Shown: in pieces, positions 3,301 to 60,408 of the stretch
Layout of the letters: the number at the start of each line of letters is the position of its first letter
Numbering within the stretch: the stretch's first letter is position 1
Source: Anaeramoeba ignava BMAN
Lineage: Eukaryota > Protista > Anaeramoebae
Direction: 5' to 3'
DNA: 64,000 nucleotides
Assembly (NCBI GenBank): GCA_028826165.1
Contig: JAPDFW010000003.1
Location: 39,550-103,549 of the forward strand
The notes under the pieces: model-generated
The model's input: the letters and a program-made list of their open reading frames with translations, nothing else
Databases searched by the model: none
Told to the model about the DNA's origin: nothing
Made by a program: the position numbers and the translations under genes

Positions 3301-3378
3301 AATATTTGCTGTAACTGATACTCCTCTTAATGGAACATTTTCTTCAGTTTTTTTATTTATTAATCCTAATTTAACCAT
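376..3378 (-). CDS. VIT + von Willebrand A domain protein (VWA5A-like), paralog 1
   Basis: Exons 3378-3088 and 3000-376 (GT-AG intron 3087-3001). Contains a VIT N-terminus (VPLRGVSVTANIVDFTAEVTINQRY...FPLD), VWA MIDAS motif FLIDRSGSMSG, FLLTDGEV and a C-terminal VIDLQNADGSF...WATAIALAYF domain. Two apparent 1-nt homopolymer indels (~3226-3229, ~703-708) are needed to join the ORFs. Confidence 0.88.
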
Positions 3379-4079: not shown

Positions 4080-7000
4080 ATGAGTTTTGGTTTTCGAAAC
4101 GAATTTGATTTATTTGACTTTGATGATCCAGAATTTCAAGACAGATTTTCATCACCTCGAATTAATCAATTTTCATTCCAAGAAGAACTTATTGAATCAA
4201 AGTAAAATTTTTTTATTAATTCACGACATTAAATAAAATAACAAAACATTTGACGTTCTCAATCGTTATTCTTGATTGGAAATTTTTGATTTAAAACAAT
4301 AAATTCATTCTTTATTTTTTTTTTTAAAATAATTTTTTTTAAATAAATTTTTTTTAGTCTTCTTCAACAAACAAAAGATTCAACAATTAAGTTTCCAGAT
4401 ATGGAAACAAATTCTAAAAAAGAACAACAAGGCATTCCACAACAGCAAAGACAACAAGAAAAGTAAATAAAACCAATTAAAAATTCGAATAAAAATTAAA
4501 ATTAAAATTAAAATTAAAATTACAATTACAATTAAAATTAAAATTGAAATTAAAATTCATTTATAATATTAAAATTAAAATTAAAATTAAAATTAAAATT
4601 ACAATTCATTTATAATATTAAAATTAATATTAAAATTAAAATTAAAATTAAAATTAAAATTGAAATTAAAATTAAAATTAAAATTAAAATTAAAATTAAA
4701 ATTAAAATTAAAATTAAAATTGAAATTAAAATTAAAATTAAAATTAAAATTAAAATTAAAATTAAAATTAAAATTAAAATTAAAATTACAATTAAAATTC
4801 ATTTATAAAATTACAATTAAAATTAAAATTAAAATTAAAATTAAAATTAAAATTAAAATTAAAATTCAAATTAAAATTCAATTTAAAATTACAATTAAAA
4901 TTAAAATTAAAATTAAAATTAAAATTCATTTATAAAATTAAAATTCAAATTAAAATTAAAATTAAAATTAAAATTACAATTAAAATTAAAATAAAAATTA
5001 AAATTAAAATTCATTTATAAAATTAAAATTACAATTAAAATTAAAATTACAATTAAAATTAAAATTAAAATTAAAATTAAAATTAAAATTAAAATTAAAA
5101 ATTAAAATTTAAAATTAAAATCAAAATTAAAATTAAAATTAAAATTAAAATTAAAAATTAAAATTAAAATTAAAATTAAATTAATTTTATAAAATTAAAA
5201 TTAAAATTAAAATTAAAATTAAAATTAAAATTAAAATTAAAATTGAAATTAAAATTAAAATTGAAATTAAAATTAAAATCAAAATTAAAATTAAAATCAA
5301 AATTAAAATCAAAATTAAAAATTAAAATTAAAATCAAAATTAAAATCAAAAATTAAAATTAAAAATTAAAATTAAAATTAAAATTAAAATTTCAAATTAA
5401 AATTAAAATTAAAATTAAAATTAAAATTAAAATTAAAATTAAAATTAAAATTAAAATTAAAATTAAAATTAAAATTAAAATTAAAATTAAAATTAAAATT
5501 AAAATTAAAATTAAAATTAAATTTCATTTATAAAATTAAAATTAAAATAAATTAAAATTCATTTATAATATTAAACTTGTCTTTTTTCTTCTTTAAAATT
5601 CTTTAAGAAATCGTGAATCAACATCTAATATTACAAAAAACCAATCATCACACTTTCCAATTATGAACCAAGGCACATCAGTATTTAGTTTGTTTCCAAA
5701 CGAGAGACAGTACCAACCAACATACCAGAAAAATGAAAATATGCAAGGCCAAATGTATCCGTTTTATCACACATCAGATTACTCAATGGACTTGAATTTT
5801 CCAACAAAAGGTTTTGAACAAGAAAAATTTGATTTCGCAAACCCAATTTCAGATCCAACGTTTTCTCTTATGAGTATTCACGACAAACAAGATTCATTCT
5901 CGATGATATCCCCAAAACAAACTTCTATTTCTACACATAAAATACCCCCAAATTACGGAAATTTCACAACATATAACTACCAGTTTCCTCAGTATCCAGC
6001 CTACAAACCAATCAATAACCAAGTTGGGAATACACTAGATCTTCATGATTCGACTGATTATAACGACACAAACCCAATTGATTTCATAAAGGCAAATAAA
6101 GACCAAGAAAACGATTACGAATATAATTACCAAAATATCAATGAATTCGAACAGCCAAATCAAAATACAGGTGGAAACAGGAATAGTGAAAGTTCACTTA
6201 GAAATGAGTATGATTACGATGATGAATACAATAACGATTACAGATTTGAAAATGAAAATGAAAACGAAAACGAAAATGAAAACGAAAACGAAAATGATAA
6301 TGAAAACGAAAACGATAATCATAGTCATAATCAAAAAATTAAAAATAATCAAAATAAATTTGTAAATATAAATATAAATGAAGAACAACAACATGGTAGA
6401 AAATCACCGAAAAATTTGAAAAAGAACCAAAAAAGAAAGAAAAAGGAGGTTGAAGTATCAAATGAAATTAAAAAATCCAAACAAAAAACAAATACGGAGC
6501 AAAGAAAAAACGCAGAAAAAAAAAGGGTTGCGAAGAAAGAAATCATCAAAAGAAAGCCCACTTCGTCGACAAAAAAGTTGCGAACAATCCTAGTGAAACC
6601 CAAAGTGAACCCATCGATGCCACTTCAAAACGATGGGAAACAACCGAAAAGCGAAAGAGCTTATATTCTTCAATGCGCAGGCAAGTTTGGCATCCGCAGA
6701 TTGCAACCTTTTTGGGATAATTTAAAAACAAGGAAGGTCCCCAAAATAACAAAGCAAGAGTCAGAAAATTCGAAGGCAAAAAAAGCAAATAAAGAAAAGA
6801 AAAAGAAAAGAAACCGCTTTGTCAAGTCAAAGCAGGCAACAAAACATTTCCACGAAATCAACTGGTTTGATGAAGAAGTTGCGATTTTTAGAGAATTCGT
6901 TGTTGCCTTTGGAAGAGACTGGAAAAAAATCTCCGACTTGATGGGCAACACTAAAAGTCCAACACAAATCAAGGCTCTTTATTATAAAAAACGGCTTGAG

Positions 7001-8431: not shown

Positions 8432-11400
8432 ATGTCAATTTTTTCAGATAAATTATTTGATTCTTTTCAAATAAATAAAAAAAAACCTTTAAAAAAAAAA
8501 GAGGAAACAAATCAATTTAAAAATCCAAATCAAAAAATATATACAAAAAATTTTCAAAAGCCAAAACAAAAAAACGTACAAAGAAATAAAAAGAAAATTA
8601 ATGAAAAAAGTCAAATAAAAAATAATTTAGAGAATGAGAATAAAGAAGATGAAGATGATGAAGATTCTTTAATAGAAAAAGAGAAAATTGATAAAACAAT
8701 ATCAGCAGAAATTGGAGAAGTATTTATAGAAAATTGTTTACATGAAGTTTCTCTTCCTGAAGGATATGATATTAAAGGAAATGAAGGTTAAAATTAAAAT
8801 TCATTTATAAAATTTTAAATTTAATTAAAATTTAAAATTTTTTTTTATTTATTTAGATATTTTTAATCCTATTTATCCACAAGAACCTGCAAGAAATTAT
8901 CCTTTTAAATTAGATCCTTTTCAAAAAACTGGAATTGCTTGTTTGAATAGAGGTGATTCTGTTATTGTTTCTGCGCATACTTCTGCAGGAAAAACTGTTG
9001 TTGCTGAGTAAATTCATTTATAAAATCAAAATTAAAATTCATTTATAAAATTAAAATTAAATTAAAATTCAAATTAAAATTAAAATTAAAATTAAAATTA
9101 AAATTCAAATTAATATTAAAATTAAAAATAAAATCAAAATTAAAATTAAAATTAAAATTAAAATCAAAATTCATTTATAAAATTAAAATTAAAATTCATT
9201 TATAAAATTAAAATTAAAATTAAAATCAAAAGATATGCTATCGCACAAGCTTTAAAAAATAATGCAAGAGTTATTTATACATCTCCAATTAAAGTATTTT
9301 TTTTCTAAACAAAATCTTTGTTTCCATTATTTATTTCCATATTTATTTTATAAAAAAAAATCAAGGCTTTAAGTAATCAAAAATATAGAGAACTTAGTGA
9401 TGAATTTAAAGATGCAGGACTTATGACTGGAGATGTTACAATTAATCCAAATTCATCTTGTATTGTTATGACAACAGAAGTAAAAAATTCAATTAAAAAA
9501 TTCAATTAAAAAATTCAAATAAAAATTTCAATTAAAAAATTCAATTAAAAAATTTCAATATTATTACTATTTAATAAGATTCTTCGTAACATGCTTTATA
9601 GAGGATCGGAAATTCTCAGAGAAGTTCAATGTGTTATATTTGATGAAATTCATTATATGAAAGATATTGGTTTGAAATCTTTTAAATCAAAATTAAAAAT
9701 GAAATTTAAAATTAAAATTAAAATTAAAATTAAAATTAAAATTAAAATTAAAATTAAAATTAAAATTTAAAATTAAAATTAAAATTAAAATGAAATTCAA
9801 AATTAAAATCAAAAATAAAATTCAAAATTAAAATGAAATTTAAAATTCAAAATCAAAATTAAAATCAAAATTAAAATCAAAATTAAAATTAATATTAAAA
9901 TTAAAATTAAAATTCAAAATGAAATTCAAAATTTAAATTTAAAATTGAATTGGTAATAATTATTAGAAAGAGGAGTAGTTTGGGAAGAAACAATTATTCT
10001 TCTTCCAGATACAATTAGATTTGTTTTTTTATCTGCAACAATTCCTAATGCAAAAGAATTTTCTGATTGGATTGCAAAAATTCATTCACAACCTTGTCAT
10101 GTTGTTTATTCAGATGTTAGACCAATTCCTTTACAACATTACGTATTTCCTGCAGGTGGAAATGGTTTATATTTAGTTGTTGATGAACAAGGAAATTTTA
10201 GGGTTATTTTTAATTTAAATTTTTAATTTAAATTTTTATTTATTAATTTTTAATTATTAATTTTTAATTGAAATTTTTAATTATTAATTTTTAAAATAGG
10301 AAAAAAATTTCCAAAAAGCAATGTCTGTAATTTCAAATGCTCCAAATCAATGTATGAATAAAAAATAAATTTATTATTCTTTTTAGGATGAAAATGGAAA
10401 TAATTTTATTGATTTTTTATTATTAATAATTTGTGTTGGAAATATTAAGATAATGATAGAAGACCACAAAATCAAAAATATAAATCAGATATTTATAAGA
10501 TTATTAATTTGATTCTTGAAAGAAAATTTGAGCCTGTTATTGTGTTTAGTTTTAGTAGAAAAGAGTGTGAAATTAAAGCTTTAAAACTTGCTAAAGTGAT
10601 TATTTTTATTTGATGAAAGAAAATTATTGAATTATTTATATTTATAATTATTTATAATTATTTTTATTGTTGAAAAAATTGAAATAATAGATGGATCTTA
10701 ATGATGAAAATGAAAAAACTTTAGTTGATGAAATTTTTACTAATGCTATTGATTCTTTATCAGATGAAGACAAGAAAATTCCAGCAGTTTGTTAAAAAAA
10801 AAAAGAAAAAAAAATATTTTTAATTAAATATTAAAATATTATTATTATTATAATTATAAACTTTTTGTTAAAAGGTTCAACATATTCTTCCTTTATTAAA
10901 AAGAGGAATTGCTATTCATCATTCAGGATTATTACCAATTCTTAAAGAAGTTATTGAAATTTTATTTCAAGAAGGTTTAGTCAAAGTATTTGATAATAAT
11001 TTGATAATAATTTAATAATAATTTCAAAATAATTTAATAATAATTTAATAATAATTTAATAATAATTTCAAAATAATTTAATAATTTAATAATAATTTCA
11101 AAATAATTTGATAATAATTTAATAATTTAAAAATAATTTAATAATAATTTAATAATAAATGATAATAATTTAATAATAATTTAATAATAATTTAATAATA
11201 ATTTGATAATAATTTCTTTAATAATAATTTAATAATAATTTCATAATAATTTAATAATAATTTCATAATAATTTAATAATAATTTAATAATAAATTCATA
11301 ATAATTTGATAATTTATAATAAAAGGTTTTATTTGCAACAGAGACATTTTCAATGGGATTAAATATGCCAGCAAAAACAGTAATATTTAGTAGTGTAAGA

Positions 11401-15125: not shown

Positions 15126-15267
15126 AGAAATCTAAAAGAATTTTCTTTTTCTTTTTCTTTTTCTTTTTCTTTTTTTTCTTTTTTCTTTTTCTTTTTCTTT
15201 TTCTTTTTCTTAAATAGATTTTTTTTTTGAAATACAAACCAAAATTTTTCTTTATTATTTTTAAATT

Positions 15268-15726: not shown

Positions 15727-16094
15727 TATAAGGAAAAAAATGAAAAACAAAAAAAATGAAAAAATGAATTTTAATTTTAATTTTAATTTTAATTTAAATT
15801 TTAATTTTAACTTTAATTTTAAATTTTGAAATGAATTTTAATTTTAATTTTAATTTTAATTTTAATTTTAATTTTAATTTTAATTTTAATTTTTAATTTT
15901 AATTTTAATTAATTTTATAAATGAATTTTAAATTTTTTAATTTTAAAATTTTAATTTTAAATTTTTAATTTTTGAATTTTAATTTTTTTTCATTTTTATT
16001 TTAATTTTTTTTAATTTTTTTTCATTTTTAATTTTTTAATTTTTTTATTTTTAAAAATTTTTCAATTTGAAACAAAAAAAGCAAAAACAATAAA

Positions 16095-19000
16095 ATGACG
16101 GATCAAAACATATTATTAGGGGAAGAAAACAAATATCAAGGAGAAGAAACAATTGAGATAACAGATAAAGATGGGATCAAAGATCCCGAGAAACCAAAAG
16201 CGTTACCAATCTGTTCTAAGCCATTAAGAGTAGTTGGAGTGCAAGAAAAAAGCCCAGTATCATGGTCACCTGATGGGAATATGTTTGCATTTGTGTCAGG
16301 AAATCACTCAATTTATTTGATTCGAAAAAATGAACGGAAATCTCAACAAGGAACAATTGCTCTTTCTTTTTCCGTTGAAGCTACACTTGAAGACCATGTG
16401 TCCCCTGTTACTTCTCTTTTGTTTCATCCTAATAAGCCTATCCTTGTTTCTGGTGGTCATGAAGGTCTTTTTATTTGGGATCTTAGGAATTCTACTTTGA
16501 AACAGAAAATTAAAACTGGTTCCCATATTTCCGCTCATGATGGCGCTGTTGAATGTTTGATTTGGCTCCAGAATGGTGATTGTTTAATTACTGGTATTTG
16601 TTTTTGTTGTTAAAAAAAAAAAAAGCAAAAAAAAAAAAAAAAAAAAGAAAATTCGATGATTCAACATAATATCTTTATATTTCATTTAGTTTAGAATGAA
16701 AATTTATTTTAAAATTAAAATTCATTCCAAAATTAAATTTCATTTATAAAATTACAATTACAATTCATTTATAAAATTAAAATTAAAATTAAAATTAAAA
16801 TTCATTTCAAAATTATTTATAAATTAAATTAAAATTAAATTCAAAATTAAAATTACAATTAAAATTAAAATTAAAATTCATTTCAAAATTACAATTAAAA
16901 TTAAAATTAAAATTAAAAATTAATTTCAAAATTAAAATTAAAATTAAAATTGATATTAAAATTAAAAATTAAAATTAAAATTAAAATTAAAATTAAAATT
17001 CATTTATAAAATTAAAATTAAAATTATAATTTGAAATTAAAATTCAAAATAAAAATTTAAAATTACAATTAAAATTAAAATTAAAATTAAAATTCATTTT
17101 CAAAATTAAAATTAAAATTAAAATTAAAATTGATATTAAAATTAAAAATTAAAATTAAAATAAATTAAAATTAAAATTAAAAATTAAAATTAAAAATTAA
17201 AATTAAAATTACAATTAAAATTAAAATTAAAATTAAAATTAAAATTACAATTAAAATTAAAATTAATTTCAAAATTAAAATTCAAAAATTACAATTAAAA
17301 TTTAAATTAAAATTAAAATTAAAATTAAAATTAAAATTAAAATTGATATTAAAATTAAAATTAAATTTAAATTAAAATTTAAAATTAAAATTAAAATTAA
17401 ATTTAAAATTAAAATTAAAATTAAAATTAAAATTTAAATTAAATTAAAAATTAAAATTAAAATTAAAATTAAAATTAAAATCAATATTAAAATTAAAATT
17501 CATTTTCAAAATTAAAATCTAGTAAATTAAAATTAAAAATTTAAATTAAAATTTAAATTAAAATTAAAATTAAAATTTAAATTAAAATTAATTAAAATTA
17601 TAATTAAAATTCAAAATAAAATTAATATTAAAATTAAAATTAAAATTAAAATTAAAAATTTCAAAATTAAAATTCATTTATAAAATTGAAAATAAAATAA
17701 TAAAAGGATCATCTGATACAACCTTAAAAGCATGGGATATGAGAGGAGATCAAGCACAATGCATTGATACAATAAACGCACACAAAGCACCAATTCTAGT
17801 ATTTACGTATTGCCCAGCAACTCAAATATTAGCGAGTGCAGGAAGAGATTCAACAATAAAATTATGGGATATAAGCAAATTGAATCACTTTTTCACAGCT
17901 GATGAACATGAAAAGGATGACACTAGCGTAAAAATAGTTCAAAATAACTCAATAGAAGGACATAGAGGTGATATTACTGCGCTTACTTTTACAAGAGATG
18001 GTTCTAGAATTTGGAGCGGTGCAAGAGATAATGATATTATTTTGTGGAGTACAAAATCAGCTAAAAAAGTTGATTCTATTTCAGGTCATAAAGGTGATAT
18101 TAAAAAGCTTTTGTTAATGAAAAATGAAACTGTTCTTATTTCTGCTTCTGCTGATAAGACTATTAAAGTTTGGGAGTTATCTTCAAAAGGTGATAAAGAA
18201 GAAAGTAGGATTTAAAATTTAAAATTAAAATTCATTTCAAAATTTAAATTCATTTCAAAATTAAAATTCATTTTAAAATTAAAATTCATTTTAAAATTAA
18301 AATTCATTTTAAAATTAAAATTCATTTCAAAATTAAAATTCATTTTAAAATTAAAATTCATTTCAAAATTTAAATTCATTTCAAAATTCATTTCAAAATT
18401 TAAATTAAAATTAAAATTAAAATTCATTTCAAAATTAAAATTCATTTCAAAATTTAAATTAAAATTAAAATCCATTTATAAAATTCATTTCAAAATTAAA
18501 ATTCATTTCAAAATTTAAATTCATTTCAAAATTAAAATTCATTTCAAAATTTAAATTCATTTCAAAATTAAAATCCATTTATAAAATTAAAATTGATTTC
18601 AAAATTAAAATCCATTTTAAAATTAAAATTAAAATTAAAATTAAATTTAAATTTAAAATTAAAATTCATTTATAAAATTTAAATTCATTTCAAAATTAAA
18701 ATTCATTTCAAAATTTAAATTCATTTCAAAATTAAAATTGATTTCAAAATTAAAATTGATTTCAAAATTTAAATTCATTTCAAAATTTAAATTCATTTTA
18801 AAATTAAAATCAAAATTAAAATTCAAATTCATTTATAAAATTAAAATTAAAATTCAAAATTAAAATTAAAATTAAAATTTAAATTCATTTCAAAATTAAA
18901 ATTAAAATTCATTTCAAAATTAAAATTCATTTCAAAATTTAAATTAAAAAATTTAAAAAATTAAAAATTTATAAAATTAAAATTCATTTTTTAAAATTAA

Positions 19001-20763
19001 AATTCATTTCAAAATTAAAATTAAAATTCAAATCCATTTCAAAATTAAAATTCATTTCAAAATTAAAATTAAAATTAAAATTAAAATTCAAATTAAAATT
19101 AAAATTTATAAATTAAAATTAAAATTCATTTATAAAATTAAAATTCATTTCAAAATTAAAATTCATTTCTAAATTAAAATTCATTTCAAAATTAAAATTA
19201 AAATTAAAATTCATTTCAAAATTAAAATTTATAAATTAAAAAGAAACCGAAAAAACGGAAACAAGAGGAGATGGAGGACTTGAGGACGTACTTCAAACAG
19301 TGGACAACGAAGCACTGCGAAAAATTCTTGAGGACGACATATCACTAACAACATTAATAAAAGATCAATTAGAAGGAGGAGCACACCTATTGAACGAGCT
19401 TGAGGCACACGAAGAAGGGATAGCCTCACTAGAGATGTCACCAACGGCACCACTTGGGATCACATCATCAATGCACAATTCAATCCGTATCTGGAGCTTT
19501 GTGAACCCACTGAAGATCGGATTTGTGCACGAATTCATTGGACAAAGCAAGGCAATCACATCGATCCGCTTGGACGAGCGAGCAGACGATGATGATTTAA
19601 ACGAAAACAATCAAGATCAAAATCGAGAAACAGCACTTCGCACTATTTTCTCAGGATCTCTTGACTACACTGTCCATCAATACGACGTCGAAACCGTTGG
19701 TCGATTGATGCAGATTAATTTCCGCAATTCGGTACAATCTCTGGATGTTTCCCCAGATAAACAATTCCTTGTCATCGGCGGATCTTCTTATGATCTTAAA
19801 GGATACGCACTTCATCCAAGTTACGTCAAAGATAACGACGCAACTTGCGTTCTTCAGGAAGTCGCACGCTTTGTCGGGCACAGCGGGAAGATCAAATACA
19901 TCGCAATCTCGCCAGATGGAAACATGATGACGTCTTCTTCGAATGATTTCAAGTTACTGACTTGGAAACTTAAAAAACCGTATTCGCCAAAACGAATGAC
20001 TCGAGGAGAATTATTAACCCAAAGTGATTTCGATGTTAATTCGTTTGATTTCAAGCCGGGAGTTCAGCATGTTCTTGTGCCCGAGAAAATCAAGCCAACG
20101 GACACAGTCCACGAACATGAAGGACATGTAAATTGCTTTGGATTCAACAGCAATGCAACATTGTTTGCGTCATGCGGAAACGATCATAAAATTGTTGTGT
20201 ACAAACCAAACACACGCAAAGCAGGATTGAGCAAGAAATTTGCGCAATCCAACGCGCACAATGCGGTTATCGAGTGCATGTGTTGGTGCAAGGATTTCCA
20301 ATCAAACAAAGAACTTCTTTGCACTGGATCCTGGGACAAAACCGCCAAAATATGGCGCATTGATGACAATCAAAAGGGGATGAAATGCGTGCGAACAATC
20401 ACTGATCACTGGGGGAAAATTGTCGGTATTGGCGCCTCTGGTGACAACCGTTTCCTTCTTACTTGTTCCGTTGACTTCACTGTTCGTTGCTTTAGTCTTA
20501 CTGAGCCCTTTGACTGCGTCGCTTTGTACTCAATCCCCCAGGAAGCCCCCTTTACTTGTCTTGCCGTTGGAAAAGACTCCTTTGTTACAGGTAGTGAAAA
20601 TGGTATGCTTAGGGTTTGGCCTATGTTCGGTGGTAGATTCGATAATTCTTTTATTCAGAAAATCCCTCTTAATGAACAAATTGAATATGATAGGAAATTG
20701 GCTGCTATTCAATCCGAGAGAAGAAGAAAAGCAAAGAAAGTTGATAGGACTCAAGTTATTTGA
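16095..20763 (+). CDS. Multi-bladed WD40-repeat protein
   Basis: Exons 16095-16593, 17707-18204, 19244-20763 join in frame. Many GH...WD repeats (LEDHVSPVTSLLFHP, GHRGDITAL, GHKGDIKK, GHSGKIKY, TGSWDKTAKIW). Confidence 0.88.
16700..17700 (+). repeat. (AAAATT)n intronic satellite
   Basis: Read directly; WD40 intron 1. Confidence 0.93.
18210..19240 (+). repeat. ~18-bp intronic satellite (AAAATTAAAATTCATTTC)n
   Basis: Read directly; WD40 intron 2. Confidence 0.9.
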
Positions 20764-26606: not shown

Positions 26607-26794
26607 ATTTTTAAATCCAAATTCAATTCTTTAAAACTTTAAAAGAAAAAGTTTTTTTTCTTTTCTCAATTCAATTCAATTCATTTCTTTTCTCAATTCA
26701 ATTCAATTCATTTCTTTTCAATTTTGAAATAAAATCAATTCATTTTTTCATTTTTTAATTTCATTTATTTTTATTATTTTTTTGATTAAAAATC

Positions 26795-27715: not shown

Positions 27716-27754
27716 AAGCGAGTATTTGTTTCAGTTTCTTTTTTTTGTTCCGTT

Positions 27755-28875: not shown

Positions 28876-31800
28876 TTAATTTTTTAATTTTTTTTTCTTT
28901 TCTAAAATTAAATCAATTATGGAATTTTCATTTAATTGATAATAATCTTTTAAATCGGAATATTCTTCTTCAATTATTCCTTTTTTAATTTTTTTGTTTT
29001 TATCAAATTTATTATGATAAAGAAAATAAATTAAATTTTGAATTGTTTCAATTGATTTTTTTGAATAATCATGAACTTGATTAGATGAATCTGAAATATT
29101 TAATTGAAACATTCCTTTAAATAAATCACTTCTCAATATTAACATTAATTTATGAACTTTAATTTCAATTTGATTTTCATTTTCAATTTGAATTTGAATT
29201 TGATTTTGATTTTCATTTTGATTTTGATTTTTAATTTGATTTTCATTTTGATTTTGATTTTGATTTTGAATTTGATTTTGAATTTGATTTTGAATTTGAT
29301 TTTGAATTTGATTTTGATTTTCAATTTGATTTTCATTTTGATTTTGATTTTTGATTTTGATTTTCATTTTTAAATAAAAAGGAATTTTGAAATTTTGATT
29401 TTGATTTTTGATTTTTGATTTTCAATTTTCTTTTTTAAATCAATTTTGATTTTGATTTTTTTGATTTTGATTTTAAATTTTGAATTTGATTTTCAATTTT
29501 TTTTTGATTTTTGTTTTTTCAATTTGATTTAAATTAAATTTTGAATTTTTTGATTTTTGAATTTGATTTTGATTTTGATTTTGATTTTTGATTCCTTTGA
29601 TTAAATCACTTTTCAATTTTGATTGATTTTGATTTTCATTTTGATTTTGATTTTGAATTTGATTTTGATTTTGAATTTGATTTTGAATTTGATTTTGATT
29701 TTGATTTTGATTTTGATTTTGATTTTGATTTTGATTTTGATTTTGATTTTGATTTTGATTTTGATTTTCAATTTGATTTTGATTTTGATTTTGATTTTGA
29801 TTTTGATTGATTTTGATTTTGATTTTCATTTTGATTTTGATTTTGAATTTGATTTTGATTTTGATTTTGATTTTGATTTTGATTTTCAATTTGATTTAAA
29901 ATTATTGTAAAATCTTTTGTTGCTTCTTCTGTATATAATCTTTTAAAATCTTTCAATATCCCTTTTATTCCTTTTTTCTTTTCAATCCATTTTGAATCAA
30001 TTCCAATTTCTTTGAAAAATTCATAAATAATTTCTTTTTGTTTTTCAACAAATTTTGAAATTTCATCTGTTGTTTGAATATAAATGGAATTTTCAGAAAT
30101 TAATTTTGGATGAATTAATTCAAGAGAGGGAAATCCTGTATAAAGAAAATTTAACAAAATTTCAACTTCTTCTTTTGATTTCTGGAAACAATTATTGTAA
30201 AACTTTTCTAAAATTAATTCATTGTTATCAAATCTTGTTAAAAGAATTAATTTATGAACATGAAATTTGAAACCATCATTTGATTGGATTTGATAATCAT
30301 AAAATTCATTTGATTTTAATAAATTAAGCAAATCTTCACTAAATGAAAAAATTTGACAAAATAAATTGATATATTTCTTTGGAATGTAAATTTTAACTAA
30401 ATCATCAAAATCAAAATTCTTCAATAAAAATTTAATTGCTTTAATATTTTCATAATCAATTGCAATTAAGAAAGGTGTTCTATTTTTATCTTGTGAATTT
30501 AGTTCAAAACCTTTTTGATAAAATAGTTTGAGGAATTTTTTTGAATCTTTTCGATACTCACAAAGATAATGAAGAGGTTGCTTGAATATAAATGTTTTAG
30601 GTTGAATATCAAATCCTTTTGAAATGAAAAAGTCAATAATTCTAAGTCCAATTTCTTTTTCTTGATATCGAGAAACAATCAATATAGGCAGATCTTGAAT
30701 TTGGTTGCTTAAATTAATATCAGCTCCTTTTTCAACAAGATATTTGATAATTTCAAGTGAATTTTCATGTTTTTGATATCTACAAACATAATGCAAAGTT
30801 GTTCCTTCATATGAACCGATAATATTAATATCAGATCCTTTTTCAATTAAGTATTTGATAATTTCAAGTGAATTTTGATTTTTGTGATATTCACAAACAT
30901 AATGTAAAGGTGTTCTTCCTAAATTCTCTTTAGCATTAATATCAGCTCCTTTTTCAACAAGATATTTGATAATTTCAAGTGAATTTTGATCTTTTTGGGA
31001 TTTGCAAACACAATGTAAAGGTGTTTGTTTATATGAATCTTGAATATTTATTTCAGCTCCGTTTTCAACAAGATACTTGATAATTTCAAAATCTTGTTTT
31101 TCGCAAGCAACATGAAGAACTGTTTGCAATTTTTTGCATTTAGAGTTTATAATAAACCCTTTCTCAACAAACAATTTAATAATTTCAAGTAATTTTTGAT
31201 TTTGATTTTGATTTTGATTTTGATTTTGATATTGAAGAAGAAGATGCAATGGTGTTTCTTCATTGTGATTTTTTGTATTAACATCAACACCCTTTTTAAC
31301 AAGATATTCGATAATATCAAGTGATTTTGGATTTTTTTCATTTTTACAAGCATAATGCAAAGATATTCCTTCATATGAACTTTGAATATTAATATCAGCT
31401 CCTTTTTCAACAAGATATTTGAAAATATTAATTGAATTTTCATTTTGATTTTTACAAACTCTCATTAATGGTGTTTCATGATCTGGATTTCGAATATTAA
31501 CATCAGCTCCCTTTCCAATTAAATAATCACACATTTCAATAGAATTTTGGAATTCACAAGCAGTATGTAGATATGCATTTCCACCAATATTTTTAACATT
31601 TATATCGAGTCCTTTTTCAATAAAATATTTCATCATTTCAAATTTATTTTCATTTTTGATATCCACAAATATAATAAAAAGGTGTATTTTTTAAATTGTT
31701 TTGAGCATTAATATCAGCTCCTTTTTCAATAAAATACTTGATAATCTCAAATAAATTTGATGTTTGTTCGTTTTTGCAAATGTAATGAAGAGGCGTATCT

Positions 31801-32793: not shown

Positions 32794-34935
32794 ATGGCAA
32801 ATAATAACAATAATAATAATAATAGCAATCAATTTTTCAATCAAGAATTTGGAAATCAACAAATTGGAAACCAATATGGAAATCAATATGGAAATCAATA
32901 TGGAAACCAATATGGAAATCAACAAATTGGAAATCAATATGGAAATCAACAAATTGGAAATCAATATGGAAATCAATATGGAAATCAACAAATTGGAAAT
33001 CAATTTGGAAATCAATATGGAAATCAATATGGAAATCAATATGGAAATCAGCAAATTGGAAATCAACAAATTGGAAATCAATATGGAAACCAAAATGGAA
33101 ATCAACAAATTGGAAATCAGTATGACAATCAATTTTTCAATCAAGAATTTGGAAATCAATATGATAATCAATTATACAATGAATTATATAATGCATTTGA
33201 AAATCCGCAAGTTGAAAAACAAGTTGAAAAAGAAGTTAAAAAAGAAGTTCAAAATCAAATTCAAAATAAACAAATTGAAAAACAAGTTCAAAATGAACAG
33301 ATTGATAACCAACTTGATAGTCAATTCAAACAGCAAAAATCCAAAAACAAACAACAATCTAATACCCAAAATTTGGATTTATATTTAAATTCACCAGAAA
33401 CTTCAAATGATAAAAACCTTCTTGAACCATCAAAAATTCTTCCTGCAATTTTGGAAATTGAAAACTTTAATAAAAATAGTTTAACTGTTCAATTTATTCC
33501 TGAAAACTTTCGTAAATCATCTTCATCTGATAAATATTGTGATCGATTTCATATAAAAATTTTGTATTGCACAAAAAGTTTTTTATGTAAATTCATTTAT
33601 AAAAATTAAAATTCATTTATAAAATTAAAATTCATTTATAAAATTAAAATTAAAATTAAAATTCATTTATAAAATTAAAATTAAAATTAAAATTCATTTA
33701 TAAAATTAAAATTATTATTAAAATTAAAATTAAAATTAAAATTCATTTATAAAATTAAAATTAAATTTAAAATTAAAATTAAAATTCATTTATAAAATTA
33801 AAATTAAAATTATTATTAAAATTAAAATAATAAAGGGGATGTTATTTATGATAAAGATAATCTATCAATTTGCTCCTGATATTATTCTCCCAATTAATGA
33901 AGAATTTTCAATAGAAATATCACAAATACCTTCTTTAAACAAATGGAATTCAAACGATAACAAATCATTATTAAATGTATTAAATGAAATTTTTGGAATT
34001 TTTATTAAAAACCAACGGAAAATTTTTGAGGAATTTTCAAATCCAACAATTCAATTTCAATATACAACAATAATTGACATGGAATCATCACAATTTTTAT
34101 TTGATCAAGAAACTCAATCAGTTTTATTTGTTATTGGAATTGTAGAAGGATATTTGAAAAATCATAAATTTATTTTTGAATTTCAACCTCCTTATCAAAA
34201 ACCTTTAATTTCATTATTTGATTCTACAGGAAAAAAAATTAATTTGGAAATTCCTATTGAATGGACTTTGGAATCATATATTCCCGAATATATTAATATT
34301 TATCAACAGAAAATTCAAGAAAAAGAACAAAAAACAAAACAAGATCAAAAAATTAAAAAACAAATGATTAAAATTTGTTGTGGAATTTTTGGAAAGTAAT
34401 TTTTTGAAAGAAAAAGAATAAGAATTTTTTTGAAAATTTTTAAATTAATTTATTAAAAAAAAAAGACCTTTAGAATATGATTCAAAAACTTTTACAAAAG
34501 TTTCCTTTTTATTCAAATTTAGTTCACAATTTTCATTTATTACAACTTGTAAATTTAAATTAATATAAAAAATATAAATTCAATTTAAATTTAAATCAAA
34601 ATTTAAATCAAATTCAAAAAATAGTTGAAATGCCACAAAATTTTCCCAAATCAAAACCAATTGTTGCAATTCAAACAGTTAATTTTTTTTCAAAAGGAGT
34701 AACAGTTTATAGAAAATTAGAGGATTTTCCATATTCACCAACACTTTCACTTGATAAAATGGTTGAAGCAATTAGAAATTATATTGTTGTATATGTTACT
34801 GATCTTGATGAAAAATGTCAAGAAGTAACAAAAAAAAGACTTGAAAGAAAAAAAAAACTTGAACAACAACGAAGAATGATTGAAGAACAACAATATGTAT
34901 ATCAACAAACAGATCCTTATTCTCATCGTTGGTGA
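32794..34935 (+). CDS. BABAM2: BRISC/BRCA1-A complex member BABAM2 (BRE/BRCC45)-like, with QYGN-repeat N-terminus
   Basis: Exons 32794-33586, 33836-34395, 34466-34548, 34625-34935. CDRFHIKILY...WDVIY...APDII, PLEYDSKTFTKVSFL, PQNFPKSKP and FPYSP match BRE motifs. One apparent frameshift near 33850-33865. Confidence 0.78.
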
Positions 34936-48765: not shown

Positions 48766-51700
48766 TCAATTTATTTCTTTAATTCTCTTCATAACTTCGT
48801 CATTAAAATGTCTCAACAAACCTTCAATAGGCAAAGCAGCAGCTTCAGCCAAAGCACAAACAGTTGTACCTTTCATAGCAGCAACGATATCCTTAAGATA
48901 TTGAATTTCATTTTTGTTCGCAACACCAAGAACAAGACGGTCCATGATAGCATTAAGATAAGCAGTGCCTTCTCTGCATGGGATGCACTGACCACAAGAT
49001 TCGTGGTGATAGAAGTGAGCGAGACGAGCAATAGCCTTGATGATATCTGTAGATTTATCCATGACGATAACGGCACCAGTTCCAAGGGAAGTTTTAGCAT
49101 CAGCAAGAGAATCATAATCCATAAGAACATCTTGACAAATTTGCTTGGGAATAACAGGGGTTGAGGATCCGCCAGGGATTACGGCAAGGAGATTATCCCA
49201 ACCGCCAATAACACCGCCTGCATGTTTTTCAATTAAATCTTTGAGAGGGATTCCCATTTCCTCTTCAACAACACAAGGATTATTGACATGACCTGAAATT
49301 GAAAAGAGTTTTGTGCCGTGATTATTTTTTCTGCCGAACGAGTTATACCACGAGGATCCGCGGCGAAGAATCGTTGGGCATGAGGCAATTGTTTCTACGT
49401 TATTCACATTTGTTGGGCATCCCCATAAGCCATATTGTGGCGGGAAGGGTGGCTTGATTCGTGGTTTTCCTGCCTTCCCTTCAAGTGACTCAATCAGTGC
49501 TGTTTCTTCTCCGCAAACGTAAGCGCCTGCTCCTGGATGCACATATATGTCGAAATCGTATCCTGTCTTGCATGCGTTTTTCCCAATCATTCCTTCTTTA
49601 TATGCTTCTTGGATTGCTTCTTCTAATCGTTTTTGTGTTTCTTTGAATTCCCCTCGAATGTAAATGTATGCTGCTCGGCAGTTCATTGCATATCCAGCTA
49701 AAAGGCATCCTTCAATGAGCTTCTGTGGATCGTGTCTCATGATCTCCCGATCTTTACATGTTCCTGGTTCACCTTCGTCTGCGTTGATTACAAGGTATGA
49801 TGTTCTTTTTTTATCCGATTTTAAATTTTTAATTTTAATTTTATAAATGAATTTTAATTATAAATTTATAAATGAATTTTAATTTCATAAATGAATTTTA
49901 ATTTTAATTATAATTTTATAAATGAATTTTAATTATAAATTTATAAATGAATTTTAAAAATGAATTTTAATTTTAATTTTAATTTTAATTTTAATTTTAA
50001 TTTTAATTTTAATTTTAAATTTTAATTTTAATTTTAATTTTAAATTTTAATTTTAATTTTAATTTTGATTTTGATTTTGATTTTAATTTTAATTTTGATT
50101 TTAATTTTGATTTTAATTTTAATTTTAATTTTGATTTTAATTTTAATTATAATTTTATAAATGAATTTTAATTTTAATTACTTGTCACTATTTTGAGGCA
50201 TAAAAGACCATTTTAATCCAGTTGGAAAACCAGCACCACCTCTACCTCTTAAACCACTTGCTTTAATTTCATCAATAATATATTTTTTTCCTTTTTCAAT
50301 AATATTTTTTGTTTTATACCAATCTCCTCTTTTAATTGCTCCCTTTTAATTTAATTTTAATTTCAATTTAATTTCAATTTAATTTAATTTTATTTCAAAA
50401 TAATTTAATTTTATTTCAAAATAATTTAATTTTAATTTTAATTTAAATTTAATTTCAATTTAAATTTATTTCAATTTAAATTTATTTCAAAATAATTTAA
50501 TTTTAATTTTATTTCAAAATAATTTAATTTTAATTTTATTTCAATTTTATTTCAATTTAATTTTAATTTTAATTTTAATTTCAATTTTAATTTCAATTTT
50601 AATTTCAATTTTAATTTCATTTTAATTATTTCAATTTAATTTCAAAATAATTTCAATTTCAATTTAATTTCAATTTTAATTTAATTTCAATTTAATTTTA
50701 ATTTAATTTTAATTTCAATTTAATTTCAATTTTAATTTAATTTCAATTTAATTTTAATTTTAATTTTAATTTTAATTTCAATTTAATTTCAATTTAATTT
50801 CAATTTTAATTTAATTTCAATTTAATTTAATTTCAATTTAATTTAATTTTATTTCAATTCAATTTAATTTTATTTCAATTTCAATTTAATTTTAATTTCA
50901 ATTTAATTTTAATTTAATTTCAATTTAATTTCAATTTCAATTTCAATTTCAATTTCAATTTAAATTTAATTTTAATTTTAATTTCAATTTCAATTTCAAT
51001 TTTAATTTTATTTTAATTTCAATTTAATTTAATTTCAATTTTGATTTAATTTTAATTTCAATTTAATTTTAATTTCAATTCAATTTAATTTTAATTTTAT
51101 TTTAATTTAATTTTAATTTAATTTCAATTTCAATTTAATTTAATTTTAATTTAATTTTAATTTAATTTCATTTCATTTTAATTTTAATTTCAATTTAATT
51201 TTAATTTCAATTTAATTTAATTTAATTTTAATTTAATTTCAATTTTGATTTAATTTCAATTTAATTTTAATTCAATTTCAATTTTGATTTAATTTCAAAA
51301 TAATTTCAATTTTATTTTAATTTAATTTCAATTTTATTTCAATTTTATTTCAATTTTAATTTAATTTAATTTTAATTTCAATTTAATTTTTAATTTAATT
51401 TAATTTTAATTTCAATTTAATTTCAATTTCAATTTAATTTTAATTTCAATTTAATTTTAATTTCAATTTAATTTTAATTTCAATTTTAATTTAATTTCAA
51501 TTTTAATTTCAATTTAATTTAAATTTTAATTTCAATTTAATTTTAATTCAATTTCAATTTTGATTTAATTTCAAAATAATTTGTTTTGTTTTGTTTTGTT
51601 TTGTTTTGTTTTGTTTTTGTTGCTTATTTTAAATTTATATAAAAAAAAAATTTTTTTTATACCTGGATTTTCCAATCATGATCACCATATAAATTTGTAA

Positions 51701-52142: not shown

Positions 52143-55100
52143 TTATTTCTTTTTCTTTTCATATTTCTTTTTAAAAAATTTTTCATCATCTGAACTTTCA
52201 TTTTTTTTATCATTTGATTGTTCATCATTTGATTGTTCATCATCTTGTTCACTTAAAGAACTTGTTCTTGAATCAAAATCTTGCCAATTTTCTTTTTCAA
52301 TTTTATTTTTTTCTTTTTCTTTTTCTTTTTCTTTTTCTTTTTCTTTTTCTTGATCTTCTTTTAATTTTTTTTTCCCTAATGATCCTAATTTAACATAATT
52401 TTCTGGTATTTGAAATACAGTTGAATCTGATGTTTTTTCTTCAAATTCTGTGAATGAAACGCGAGCAGAAATTCCTGGAAAAAGTGGTATTTCTAAATTT
52501 TTGAATTTTATAAATGAATTTTAATTATAATTTTAATTTTAATTTTGATTTTAATTATAATTTTAATTTTAATTTTGATTTTAATTTTATAATTATAATT
52601 TTAATTTTAATTTTAATTTTAATTTTAATTTTAATTTTAATTTTAATTTTAATTTTAATTTTAATTTTGATTTTAATTTTTAATTTTAATTTTAATTTTG
52701 ATTTTAATTTTAATTTTAATTTTATTTTTAATTTTATAATTTTAATTTTAATTTTAATTTTAATTTTATAATTTTAATTTTAATTTTAATTTTAATTTTA
52801 ATTTTAATTTTAATTTTAATTTTAATTTTAATTTTAATTTTAATTTTAATTTTAATTTTAATTTTAATTTTAATTTTAATTTTAATTTTAATTTTAATTT
52901 TAATTTTGATTTTAATTTTTAATTTTAATTTTAATTTTAATTTTTAATTATAATTTTAATTTTTACCAAGTTTAACTGGAAATCCTTCAAATGGTAATTT
53001 CATACTAATAAAATCTTTGAGTTTTTCTACTTGTTGATTTGAGGGTGCAAATATTTCTAATATTGGAAGTAATTGATCAATTGTAAGTGGAAAATTTTTT
53101 GATACACAAACTGTACTTGAAAAAGATTTAGATGTTTTAATAATTTCAGGTTGAGAATCATTTTTCTTCTCATTTTTTGTATTAATATTTTTATCTTGAA
53201 TATTTTCTTTAATTTCATTCTTATTTTTTTGCGTAATTTTATGATTTTCATTTGAATTTTCATTTGAATTTTGATTTTGATTATTTTGATTATTTTGATT
53301 ATTTTGATTTTTATTATTTTGATTTGAATTTTGATTTGAATTTTGATTTGAATTTTGATTTGAATTTTCATTTGAATTTTGATTTGAATTTTGATTTGAA
53401 TTTTGATTTGAACTTTTATTCTGATTTTTTCGTTTTTTTGTATTATCAAGAGTATTTTTAAGTTGAAAATTTTGTTCTTTTTGAAGTTTTCTTTGATTTT
53501 GAATTTTGATTTGAATTTTGATTTGAATTTTGATTTGAATTTTCATTTAAATTTTCATTTAAATTTTCATCAGTAAAATTTGGTTCTTTTAATAATTCTT
53601 TGTGTGGTGATTTTCTAATTAAAGCTTCATAAGTTATATTTTTTAACTCAAAAACATCTGCTTTCCATTTTCCAACTTTTTCTGTTTTAAAATCTCCAAA
53701 AAATCCCTTTTTCCTTTTCAAACTAAAAGTTTTAGTGTTTAAATTTCCTTGAATTGTATCATTAGCTAATAAAATATCAATATCTTGATCTAATGGAACA
53801 ATTTCAATTTTTCCAATGTGCTTAGTTGTGTTAAAAAAAGTTTTTTGTTCATGATCAATAACTAAAACATCTCCAGAATTTTCTTTTGTTTTTTTTTTTA
53901 AAATCAAAAAAGATATTTTTTTAGATTTTGATTTTGATTTTGATTTTGATTTTCAATTTGATTTTCATTTTGATTTTGATTTTGATTTTGATTTTGATTT
54001 TGATTTTGATTTTGATTTTCAATTTGATTTTGAATTTGATTTTAATTTTAATTTTTAATTTGATTTTGATTTTGAATTTGAATTTGGATTTGAATTTGAA
54101 TTTTAATTTTTAAATATTATCAAACCTTTATCTAATCCTAATAAAAGAAAACTAACTTTTCCTCGAATCCACTTCATATTCTTGAAACCAATTAATGTGC
54201 AATCAAGTCGAATATTTGATCCTTTTTTCCAAATGTGATATTCATCTGAAGGACAAAATTTACTTAAAAATGGAATCCAAGTTGAAACATTCCAATGTAT
54301 TTTCATAAAGAAATTTGGAAGCTGTAATTATAATTTTAATTTGAATTTGATTTTATTTTTAATTTTAATTTTAATTTTGAATTTTAATTTTAATTTTGAT
54401 TTAGAATTTTAATTTTGATTTTGATTTTAATTTTAATTTTGAATTTTGAATTTTGAATTTGAATTTGATTTTAATTTTGATTTTGATTTTAATTTTAATT
54501 TTAATTTTTAATTTTGATTTTAATTTTAATTTTAATTTTAATTTTGATTTTAATTTTAATTTTAATTTTAATTTTAATTTGAATTTTAATTTGAATTTTA
54601 ATTATAATTTTAATTTTAATTTTAATTTTAATTTTGATTTTAATTATAATAACCTCTTCAATTTTTTGAAGAGCAACAGGAAGTTTTTTATGATAAAGTT
54701 GAATCATTTTCTTATTCAAAGCGATATAGATAATTTTTAAAGTTTCTTTATCACCCCAATAAGTACATTCCTAAAGAAAAAAAATAAAGAAAAAATTAGT
54801 AAAAATAAAAATAAAATAAAATAAAATAAAATATACTTGAATTGCAGTCCATCCATTCTTCTTTTGTGCTCCAGGATCAGCACCAAATTCAATAAGAATC
54901 TTTACGGCTTCTTTATTACGATATTCTATTGCGTGAAGAAGTGGAGTATCTCCATTTTCATTTTTGAAATTTATTTCAGTATCAGTTGATGATTTTAATA
55001 ATTCCCTTAATTTCTCAAGATCATTTTCATTTATTGCTTTGAAAATTTCTTGTGGATTTGGAAGAATTTTGCTTTTTTTTTGTTTTTCTTTTTGTTTTTC

Positions 55101-57981: not shown

Positions 57982-59997
57982 ATGAATCAAAATCAAAATT
58001 CAAATCAAAATCAAAATCAAAATCAAAATTCAAATCAAAATAAAAATAAAAATCAAAATCAAAATCAAAATTCAAATCAAAATCAAAATAAAAATCAAAA
58101 TCAAAATAAAAATCAAAATCAAAATCAAAATTCAAATCAAAATCAAAAAAAATCAAAATCAAAATCAAAATCAAAATCAAAATCAAAATCAAAATAAAAA
58201 TCAAAATCAAAATAAAAATCTAAATCAAAATCAAAAACAAAATCAAAATCAAAATTCAAATCAAAATCAAAATCTAAATCAAAACAAATCAAAATCAAAA
58301 TCAAAATTCAAATCAAAATCAAAATCAAATCGAAAATCAACTCGTTAAACTTCAATTTCCTGAAAAAGAACCAATTATTGTTTCAGTTAAAAAAGGAAAA
58401 CATTTTCTTGAAAAATATGAAGAACAAATCAAAAAATTCAAAGATCAACAAAAAAGAAGTCAACAAAATAAAATAAACGAACATATATTTCAAGTTGGAT
58501 TATCAAATAAAAACAGGGGAGATTTAGGAGAAGCCAAAATAATTATAAATGGAGAAAAGTTTGAATTGATAACTAAATTCGATCATTTTAGAAATTTATT
58601 AAACAAACAAATCCAAATTAATCGAGATTTTAAAAACAAAAATATCATCCAATTAAGTTTTGGAAAAAATTCAACTCAATTATTTATGTGTTCATTTTAT
58701 GAAACTTTTATTATATCTTTTGAAAATGAAATATTATGTGAAGAATTTATTGAATGTTTTAATATTTGCTATAAAGGCTCACATAAAATAATTCTTAAAG
58801 AAAATGAATTTATTGTAAAAATTCTTGATAAAAATTTTCAAGAAATAGAAACAGGAAAAATTAGAATTAATGAAAATAAAATTGAAATATATACACAAAC
58901 AGAAACATTTTCAAGTGATATTCTTTCAATAAAATTTGCTAGAAATGGAAATATTTTCAGAATCACATTTCCTTTTATTCAAGAAGTTGTTCTCTTTTTT
59001 CCAAATGATAAAGATAGAGTTAAATTTATGTTTCTTTATAAAAAAATTTCAAGAACTCAATCAAATCAAAAGGAGCGATTTGGTAAGTATAAAGAATAAG
59101 AAAAATCAAGAGATAAAACAAACTAAAACAAATTAATTTACTAATTGCTTTTTTTTGTTTGTTTGTTTAGTTCTTTCAAGAAATTCAAATGAAAATGAAA
59201 ATGAAAATCAAATTTTAAATTCAAATGAAAATCAAAATTCAAATCAAAATTCAAATCAAAATCAAAATTCAAATCAAAATTCAAATCAAAATCAAAATCA
59301 AAATGAAAATCAAAATCAAAATCAAAATTTAAATCCAAATTCAAATCAAAATGAAAATCAAATTCAAAATGAAAATATAAATTCAAATGAAAATATTGAT
59401 AAAGATGAAGAAATGATTAATTTTTCCATTTCATTACTTGATGAAAATAATAACAAAATTAACGAAGGAGAAATTATTGTAACAAAATACAACTTTGATT
59501 TGAAAGTAAATGATACAATTTTCAAAAATTTACTTCACAAAGATATTCAAGCATTTCGAGATTTTGAAGATAAAAGAATTATCAAATTAAGTTTTGAAAA
59601 AGAAACAAATAAAAAGTCAAGATTAAAACAAAGAGAAAGATTTCGGATTCTTTTTTTGGATCAAGAAGCAAGTAATGAATTTATGGAGATTATGAAAGGA
59701 TATCAACAAAAGCAAAGTTTAGATAATGATATTCTTCAAATATCAGTTTATATAATTGATGAAAATGAACAAATTATTGAATCTGCTGAAATTATTTTAA
59801 TGAGTGATGAAGTTAAATTAATCCGTAAAAATCAATCTTTTTCAACAAGAAATACTACTCCTTTTATTGCTGAAAAAAGTGAAAAATTTTCAAATGAAAT
59901 TTTCCTTGATATTGGTCAGAAAAAACCACTCAGAATTAAATTTTTAACTGAAAATGCAAGAGAAGAATTTTGTTATCGTTTGGAGTTTATTAATTAA
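57982..59997 (+). CDS. Uncharacterised protein with tandem PH-like modules, copy B
   Basis: Paralog of copy A; intron 59083-59170 (GTAAGT...TAG); frame slip in the N-terminal NQ repeat; four modules. Confidence 0.65.
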
Positions 59998-60408
59998 AAT
60001 CAAAATTCATTTTAAAATTGAAATTAAAATTAAAATCAAAATTAAAATCAAAATTAAAATCAAAATTAAAATTAAAATAAATTTTGAAATCAAAATTCAA
60101 ATTGAAATTGAAATTAAAATTAAAATTAAAATTAAAATCAAAATTCATTTTAAAATTAAAATTGAAATTAAAATTGAAATTAAAATCAAAATTAAAATTA
60201 AAATTAAAATTAAAATCAAAATTAAAATTTAAAATTAAAATTAAAATTAATAAAAAAGTGGAATAAATTTTGAAATCAAAATCAAAATTCAAATTGAAAT
60301 TGAAATTAAAATTCAATTTGAAAATAAAATAAAAATTAAAAAATCAAAAAAATTTTTTCATTTTTTTCTTTTCAAATTAAATTTAAAAAAAAAAAACCAA
60401 AAAATCAA

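What the first reader, a model, noticed from the sequence alone, without database searches (positions are those of the whole stretch)
33587..33835. Shared sense-oriented intronic motif AATTCATTTATAAAA in unrelated genes
Seen: the same 13-15-mer occurs in introns of the Myb gene (e.g. 4799, 4926, 5011, 5524), MTR4 (8801, 9014, 9039, 9171, 9196), WD40 (16740, 17000, 17673, 19126) and BABAM2 (7 copies here), and reverse-complemented in minus-strand NuoF (49841-49950, 50157) and ANKRD13 (52508). It is always sense-oriented in introns. MTR4 intron 2 and BABAM2 intron 1 begin identically (GTAAATTCATTTATAAAA), and in about six introns a copy lies ~20-50 nt before the AG. Inference: a branch-site or splicing-enhancer element, or the footprint of a templated process that seeds (AAAATT)n expansion. 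Independent slippage would not easily recreate the same interrupting word.
Basis: partly seen in the sequence, partly recalled or inferred. Interest (0 to 1): 0.78.

Follow-up and report, generated by a model that had tools for sequence, protein, structure and literature searches.

The report
Shared word in protist intron satellites
In an anaerobic amoeba, about a fifth of the introns examined are filled with an A-rich six-base repeat that carries the same seven-base interruption in unrelated genes, most likely because the word has been copied from one repeat tract to another rather than because splicing needs it.

Summary
The window is Anaeramoeba ignava DNA by homology. AATTCATTTATAAAA occurs 26 times against 0.12 expected: 25 sense copies in 8 of 39 introns and one upstream of a minus-strand gene. 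It is the spacer CATTTAT inside (AAAATT)n arrays, found in 8 of 11 array-rich introns and 0 of 28 others. It is four edits from the pure repeat yet shared by 9 of 15 arrays. No two-edit variant reaches more than 3 arrays, and simulated independent arrays never reach 3. Its orientation comes from the arrays: all 19 long introns are A-rich on the sense strand. A required branch site is not supported: 31 of 39 introns lack the word, and it scores no better against U2 than the pure repeat. A modest 3' bias remains (6 of 7 introns; P 0.003-0.025). Best reading: a variant unit of a dispersed intron satellite, likely spread by copying between arrays and perhaps weakly kept near the acceptor. No conversion tract was shown. 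Its TCATTT core also precedes 16 of 17 start codons, like the trichomonad initiator.

The parts
33587..33835 (+). BRE/BABAM2 intron 1, 249 nt, (AAAATT)n array with 7 motif copies spaced 19-49 nt
   Evidence: join across it in an X3 contig; Pfam BRE
4463..5607 (+). Myb gene intron 2, 1145 nt array; 3 exact 15-mers, 7 TCATTTATA; last copy 49 nt from the end
   Evidence: ORF closes when spliced; Pfam Myb
8787..8856 (+). MTR4 intron 1, 70 nt, one motif copy at +15; a short, little-expanded example
   Evidence: spliced model equals P0121
9008..9232 (+). MTR4 intron 2, 225 nt, 4 copies, first at +7, last 37 nt from the end
15767..15960 (-). Non-intronic (AAAATT)n array upstream of a minus-strand ORF (ATG at 15726); motif at 15913-15927, one CATTTC sister word, ending in a TCATTT cluster
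16594..17706 (+). WD40 gene intron 1, 1113 nt, 4 TCATTTATA copies, last 33 nt from the end
18205..19243 (+). WD40 gene intron 2, 1039 nt, 3 motif copies plus 25 CATTTC and 5 CATTTT sister units
49805..50181 (-). NuoF intron 2, 377 nt, 5 TCATTTATA copies, first at +18, last 46 nt from the end
   Evidence: spliced model equals P0001
52493..52966 (-). ANKRD13 intron, 474 nt nearly pure array with one copy 25 nt from the end
   Evidence: Pfam ANKRD13_C continues across it at profile position 273
59992..60341 (+). Intergenic (AAAATT)n array with two CATTTT sister words and no full motif
9670..9966 (+). MTR4 intron 5: (AAAATT)n array without the motif, at a position shared with an unrelated eukaryote (L035)
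54322..54653 (-). ANKRD13 intron 2: (AAAATT)n array with no motif and no YTNAY word

Best explanation
The motif is a 13-nt variant unit (AAAATT + CATTTAT) of a dispersed (AAAATT)n satellite that fills many Anaeramoeba ignava introns, and it was likely spread from a common origin by homology-directed copying between arrays (non-allelic gene conversion or templated break repair), then likely multiplied within each array by slippage. Shown: it occurs only in such arrays, in their orientation, inside and outside introns, with a family of sister words, and independent mutation cannot account for the sharing. Inferred: the copying step. Inferred and weaker: a copy 20-50 nt before the AG may be mildly favoured as a U-rich, branch-like patch, without being required.
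For: 8 of 11 array-rich introns have it against 0 of 28 others, Fisher P=3e-6. Among spacers 3 or more edits from the repeat, only CATT-core words recur (9, 3, 2, 2 arrays); the other 17 of 21 are private to one array, a spectrum that fits one founder family. 0 of 450 simulated independent sets reach 3 arrays. The non-intronic arrays at 15767-15960 and 59992-60341 carry the word or its sisters. Spacing between copies is often 19, 25 or 31 nt, i.e. 13+6k. Summed contig depth over the motif is about 260,000 against 65 on the flank (X1) and 18,800 against 25 (X2); single-copy-depth contigs from other loci end in it on either side (depth is not a copy number). Non-allelic movement of inteins between paralogous and unrelated genes is reported in this genus (PMC10710043, section read).
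Against: No direct trace of conversion: array similarity does not fall with distance (Mantel rho -0.02 to -0.07, P 0.26-0.38), and shared multi-interruption strings are of 23-41 nt and made mostly of one-step variants. Copying alone does not explain the 3' bias (P 0.003-0.025, n=7), which none of 7 one-step control variants shows, nor why this word rather than another became common. One window only; no genome is held.
Confidence: 0.45

Rival explanations
1. A selected splicing element (weak branch site or protein-bound UUCAUUU enhancer) that A-rich repeat-filled introns would need near the 3' end; upstream copies are slippage by-products.
For: Last copy 25-50 nt from the end in 6 of 7 long introns, and a TTCATTT word 26-51 nt from the end in 7 of 7. 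The single copy in the 474-nt ANKRD13 intron is at -25. Sister words keep TTCATTT. The related A. pumila has branch consensus CT(G/c)AC, of which TTCAT is an AT-shifted form (10.64898/2026.04.11.717937, passages).
Against: 31 of 39 introns lack it, including 3 of 11 array-rich ones; 3 introns have no YTNAY word. U2 score 3.2 against 3.6 for the pure repeat and 4.2 for a one-edit variant, whose TTAAT word has 0 copies in the 3' zone and 8 inside. Density in the first 48 nt equals that in the 3' zone (13.9/kb each, 4.6/kb inside). TTCATTT bias without a cut-off has P=0.067. Selection cannot easily build the same 4-edit word many times.
Confidence: 0.25
2. A fixed-template insertion: a reverse transcriptase or repair process would add the same 7 nt at TT|AAAA sites, giving AAAATT-CATTTAT-AAAATT, and so seed or interrupt the arrays.
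For: The 7 nt sit between two AAAATT copies, like an insert between target-site duplications (sequence). TTAAAA is the L1 target consensus, and some APE-type elements target microsatellites (PMC3812793, passages). It would explain identical words and locked orientation.
Against: No larger element ends in the word in this window; no length variation of the kind 5' truncation gives; 0 head-to-tail 13-mer doublets; no Rfam hit. In a tandem array any insert looks flanked by a duplication.
Confidence: 0.12
3. The motif-bearing introns are decayed members of an Introner family that carried the word and a proto-repeat.
For: Two introns share their first 18 bases; a 70-nt intron looks like an unexpanded form; MTR4 intron 2's position was seen in 0 of 29 intron-bearing outside loci covering it.
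Against: Pairwise identity of the 8 introns is 6-18 of 20 at the 5' end and 5-15 of 20 at the 3' end, with no junction repeat over 2 nt and no terminal inverted repeat. The word also lies outside introns. An array has filled an intron at a shared, old position (MTR4 intron 5). The outside loci are intron-poor, so absence there is weak.
Confidence: 0.08
4. Recurrent independent origin through a deterministic mutational path, such as template switching in the self-complementary AATT/TTTATAAA context.
For: The 3' ten bases (ATTTATAAAA) occur 140 times in at least four array types, including 3' intergenic arrays; one perfect 14-nt palindrome exists in the Myb intron.
Against: The C cannot be templated from a pure array. 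The expected intermediate AATTTTAT is in 1 array against 9 for the end product. A 31-nt stretch with one copy hardly folds (RNA 0.0, DNA -0.2 kcal/mol).
Confidence: 0.08

Closest known systems
Dispersed micro/minisatellite families with shared variant units (concerted evolution; concept recalled)
   Same: A diagnostic variant unit shared by non-allelic arrays, orientation tied to the array, local amplification by slippage.
   Different: Here the arrays are 50-1200 nt and sit inside ordinary introns of housekeeping genes, in about a fifth of the introns sampled, all A-rich on the sense strand; no conversion tract was demonstrated.
U2-type branch point (A. pumila CT(G/c)AC; TACTAAC consensus recalled)
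   Same: Contains two YTNAY words; the last copy lies in the usual distance range.
   Different: Absent from 31 of 39 introns, repeated through the intron, and no better U2 match than the background repeat.
Introners (10.1101/2022.06.06.494994, passages)
   Same: Sequence shared by introns of unrelated genes, in sense orientation.
   Different: Similarity does not extend to both boundaries; that survey filters out microsatellite-based similarity within pre-existing introns, which this resembles.
Microsatellite-targeting or -seeding retroelements (Waldo, Mino, Dong, L1/Alu tails; PMC3812793, passages)
   Same: Same-sequence interruption in a TTAAAA-rich repeat.
   Different: No element body, coding frame or tail; insert length is constant.
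Trichomonas vaginalis initiator TCA+1Py(T/A) bound by IBP39 (PMC4450334, passages)
   Same: The TCATTT core matches it and precedes 16 of 17 start codons here.
   Different: Promoter copies mostly sit in T-runs; intronic copies have only three T and no evidence of initiation.
Satellite-filled introns of Drosophila Y-linked fertility genes (PMC6508621, listing and start of abstract only)
   Same: Simple AT-rich satellite transcribed within introns.
   Different: Those are megabase introns in a few genes; these are sub-1.4-kb arrays in many ordinary genes.

Membership tests
U2-type branch site | Lies about 18-50 nt upstream of the 3' AG | tested here: inconclusive
   Last copy fits in 6 of 7 long introns (P 0.003-0.025), but most copies lie elsewhere
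U2-type branch site | Pairs with U2 better than surrounding sequence | tested here: not met
   Crude score against the recalled consensus: 3.2 vs 3.6 for the pure repeat; the organism's own U2 was not available
U2-type branch site | Present in most introns | tested here: not met
   8 of 39
U2-type branch site | Lariat branches at its adenosine | not testable with these tools
   Only assembled contigs were available
U12-type intron | RTATCCTT donor (consensus recalled) | tested here: not met
   0 of 39 donors match
Introner | Similarity between introns reaching both boundaries | tested here: not met
   28 pairs: 6-18/20 at 5', 5-15/20 at 3'
Introner | Target-site duplication or terminal inverted repeats (present in only some families) | tested here: not met
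   Junction repeat at most 2 nt; inverted identity 3-12/20 in 8 introns
Introner | Lineage-specific intron positions | tested here: inconclusive
   MTR4 intron 2 position in 0 of 29 intron-bearing outside loci; introns 3, 4, 5 (no motif) shared with 2, 10 and 1 loci; intron 1 not covered
Microsatellite-targeting retroelement | Element body or truncated copies of variable length ending at the target | tested here: not met
   Constant 7-nt spacer in the window; genome not available
Parabasalid-type initiator | Matches TCA+1Py(T/A) | tested here: met
   TCATTT; consensus
Parabasalid-type initiator | Spans a transcription start site | not testable with these tools
   No 5'-end data; position upstream of 16 of 17 ATGs is suggestive for promoter copies only
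Dispersed satellite under concerted evolution | Complex variant shared by non-allelic arrays beyond independent origin | tested here: met
   9 of 15 arrays; 0 of 450 simulations reach 3
Dispersed satellite under concerted evolution | Conversion tracts or distance-dependent similarity | tested here: inconclusive
   No distance effect and no long compound haplotypes among 15 arrays; low power

The most novel reading that the evidence does not exclude
A. ignava has a sequence-specific system, either an RNA-binding splicing factor or a reverse transcriptase with a fixed short template, that places or keeps one initiator-like word in thousands of strand-biased intron satellites and so drives intron expansion in one of the most AT-rich eukaryotic genomes.
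Probability: 0.2. Interest if true: 0.75.

Novelty: new variant of a known kind. Interest (0 to 1): 0.42.

Why it matters
If copying is right, the word is a natural marker of exchange between thousands of unlinked arrays, in a genus already noted for non-allelic intein movement. It would let rates of ectopic conversion be measured from existing assemblies. If the word is selected, it would show how a spliceosome finds introns that are about 92% AT, half of which end in AAG and many of which have no pyrimidine tract. The strict A-rich sense bias of expanded introns and the initiator-like promoter word are separately testable and may matter as much as the motif.

Tried and rejected
No whole genome is held, so no genome-wide counts. 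No RNA holder was listed as such; X3 is of unrecorded kind and is treated as RNA-like only because its contig joins exons. DNA runs gave no cover over most of the array and the next exon, which proves nothing. Long motif patterns found 0 matches in viral contigs and prokaryote genomes; a 19-mer gave 120 scattered single matches, the 80 listed all from prokaryote records, taken as chance. No Rfam match. A protein search with a translated array returned 9 weak hits, none named as Anaeramoeba. NuoF in viral contigs: none. Local gene conversion (distance decay) was not supported. The 5' positional bias is not significant (3 of 7; P 0.13 and 0.28). RNA or DNA hairpin function is rejected. Telomerase-like pure 13-mer repeats: 0 doublets. 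A paper search to verify a recalled human NDUFV1 intron at the codon matching NuoF intron 2 gave 3 papers that look unrelated by title, so that stays recall. Earlier scan notes: none on this genome or these words; two sequence look-alikes were unrelated bacterial enzyme reports.

Full report
Source and gene models. The NuoF exon matched a protein named Anaeramoeba ignava at 99% and the MTR4 exon at 100%. My spliced models equal those proteins exactly. I annotated 39 GT-AG introns by hand. Six of 12 gene models translate to a single terminal stop. BRE does so (581 aa) once one base that the X3 contig lacks is left out. The ORMDL model had no stop in the range given. ANKRD13, RasGAP, RRM and the first VIT model keep internal stops, so some boundaries are unsure and 39 is approximate. 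All 8 motif-bearing introns are supported by a closed frame, a contig join or Pfam continuity. The genome paper reports 80.65% A+T overall and 91.86% in introns (PMC11550330, passages); the A. pumila preprint gives more than 30,000 introns for the other sequenced isolates (passages).

The observation. The 15-mer has 26 copies against 0.12 expected: 25 sense in 8 introns and one on the minus strand at 15913, in an array upstream of a minus-strand ORF and in that ORF's sense. An X3 contig joins 33586 to 33836, and DNA-run contigs confirm 33140-33618 without difference. Summed depth on the motif is about 4,000 times (X1) and 750 times (X2) the flanking depth, and 980 and 434 contigs were laid. 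The tool warns that this is not a copy number, but it shows the word is common elsewhere in the genome. Extrapolating 8 of 39 to more than 30,000 introns would give several thousand introns (inference).

What it is. The word is AAAATT + CATTTAT within (AAAATT)n arrays: 8 of 11 introns with at least 40% AAAATT cover have it, and 0 of 28 others (P=3e-6). Ranked by edit distance from the pure repeat across 15 arrays, one-edit variants occur in 1-9 arrays, two-edit variants in 1-3 and three-edit variants in 1-2. The four-edit CATTTAT occurs in 9. The only other recurrent distant words are its sisters CATTTC (3), CATTTT (2) and TCATTTAT (2). A toy model of independent point mutation, indels and slippage gave at most 2 sharing arrays in 450 runs.

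Orientation. AAAATTAAAATT is 352 sense to 5 antisense in introns. All 19 introns over 200 nt have more A than T whatever their repeat unit (P=4e-6), against 11 of 20 short ones. Non-intronic arrays are mixed: of 8 measured on the plus strand, 4 are A-skewed, 2 near balance and 2 T-skewed; one of these, between two plus-strand genes, is T-rich in the sense of both. The motif's strand is thus inherited from the arrays. A possible cause of the array bias is avoidance of U-rich transcripts, whose rU:dA hybrids are weak; this is recalled and untested.

Branch-site test. For: the last copy starts 25-50 nt from the end in 6 of 7 long introns (token shuffle P=0.003 with a 55-nt cut-off suggested by the finding; P=0.025 without a cut-off, and none of 7 control variants below 0.13). 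Against: 31 of 39 introns lack it; three have no YTNAY word; two short introns keep TACTAAT. A crude pairing score gives the motif 3.2, the pure repeat 3.6 and a one-edit variant 4.2. Density is the same in the first 48 nt as in the 3' zone, though those 5' copies come from only 3 introns and the 5' bias is not significant. No lariat data were available. It may help weakly, but it is not the general branch signal.

Mobile-intron and insertion tests. The 8 introns share no end-to-end similarity, junction duplication or terminal inverted repeat, so they fail the Introner criteria (passages). Of 80 outside MTR4 loci, 30 had inferred introns. MTR4 introns 3, 4 and 5 share positions with 2, 10 and 1 of them; intron 2 shares with none of the 29 covering it; three positions had no intron-bearing locus covering them. 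Arrays therefore do fill old introns (intron 5), but the age of motif-bearing introns is open. I recall that human NDUFV1 and MTREX have introns at the sites matching NuoF intron 2 and MTR4 intron 2; I could not verify this (one search was tried for NDUFV1 only). A fixed-template insertion at TTAAAA sites fits the geometry, but no donor element is in the window.

Copying test. Variant profiles show no decay with distance and no long compound haplotypes, so local conversion is not shown. One dominant family plus private singletons, confinement to homologous arrays and non-intronic copies still fit genome-wide copying with fast local scrambling best. I give it 0.45, with possible weak 3' retention.

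Initiator link. TCATTT lies in sense within 120 nt upstream of 16 of 17 start codons (shuffle mean 2.9, maximum 8 in 2,000) but in only 1 of 20 short introns. It matches the Trichomonas initiator consensus (PMC4450334, passages). The motif family's core is therefore also this genome's likely start-site word. At 15767-15960 an array runs directly into such a cluster, a possible origin of the word (speculative).

In print. I found no description of these arrays or the motif. Searches: Anaeramoeba+intron+genome (26 papers, 20 listed); term look-ups in three Anaeramoeba papers (passages; one section); introner+Anaeramoeba (0); (listings only; 64 was too broad to be informative). For PMC11550330, 11 of 15 supplement files were searched without a relevant hit. 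Its main supplementary PDF, which likely holds the genome tables, could not be read, and the preprint's supplements were not requested; either may bear on novelty.

Verdict. A real, genome-scale and unexplained shared word, most likely a product of satellite dynamics with at most a minor splicing role. New variant of a known kind; interest 0.42.

Noticed in passing
120 nt upstream of 17 start codons across the window: Sense TCATTT, usually within T-runs and often in 2-5 copies, precedes 16 of 17 ATGs (shuffle mean 2.9); likely a trichomonad-type initiator in Anaeramoeba.
   Followed up: partly
all 19 introns longer than 200 nt: Each is filled by a tandem array with its own unit (e.g. AAATAT, AAATAC, AAAATC, a 64-nt minisatellite) and all are A-rich on the sense strand, unlike short introns and intergenic arrays.
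   Followed up: partly
39 annotated introns: Acceptors are 19 TAG, 19 AAG and 1 CAG; many have A-runs instead of a pyrimidine tract; only two short introns carry TACTAAT, both with a T-rich tract.
   Followed up: partly
33869: The X3 contig lacks one base here; without it the BRE frame is continuous (581 aa). Likely an assembly error or allele; no DNA run covered the site.
   Followed up: partly
13735-15131, 26785-27717, 11705-12377: Other array types in 3' flanks and an MTR4 intron are built on the same ATTTATAAAA ten-mer without the TTC prefix; 140 copies in the window.
   Followed up: partly
31650-31690 (minus strand): Ankyrin-repeat/BTB-like gene (label from reading the ORFs) is split between two overlapping frames with no obvious intron; possible frameshift or assembly error.
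   Followed up: no
55850-57793 and 58278-59099: Two near-identical tandem protein segments, an internal or tandem duplication in an unidentified plus-strand gene.
   Followed up: no
376-3378 (-) and 22669-26606 (+): Two VIT/VWA-type paralogues (label from reading the ORFs) have an intron after the same motif: 87 nt in one, 1268 nt of (AAATAT)n in the other, showing expansion within an existing intron.
   Followed up: partly
38667-38766 (minus strand): A probable RasGAP-gene intron starts GTAAATTCA like the motif introns but holds a short antisense (AATTTT)n run, the only reversed array seen in an intron.
   Followed up: no
15271-15726 (minus strand): 152-aa ORF that resembles Mediator subunit 11 by recall; no Pfam match at E 0.01.
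   Followed up: partly
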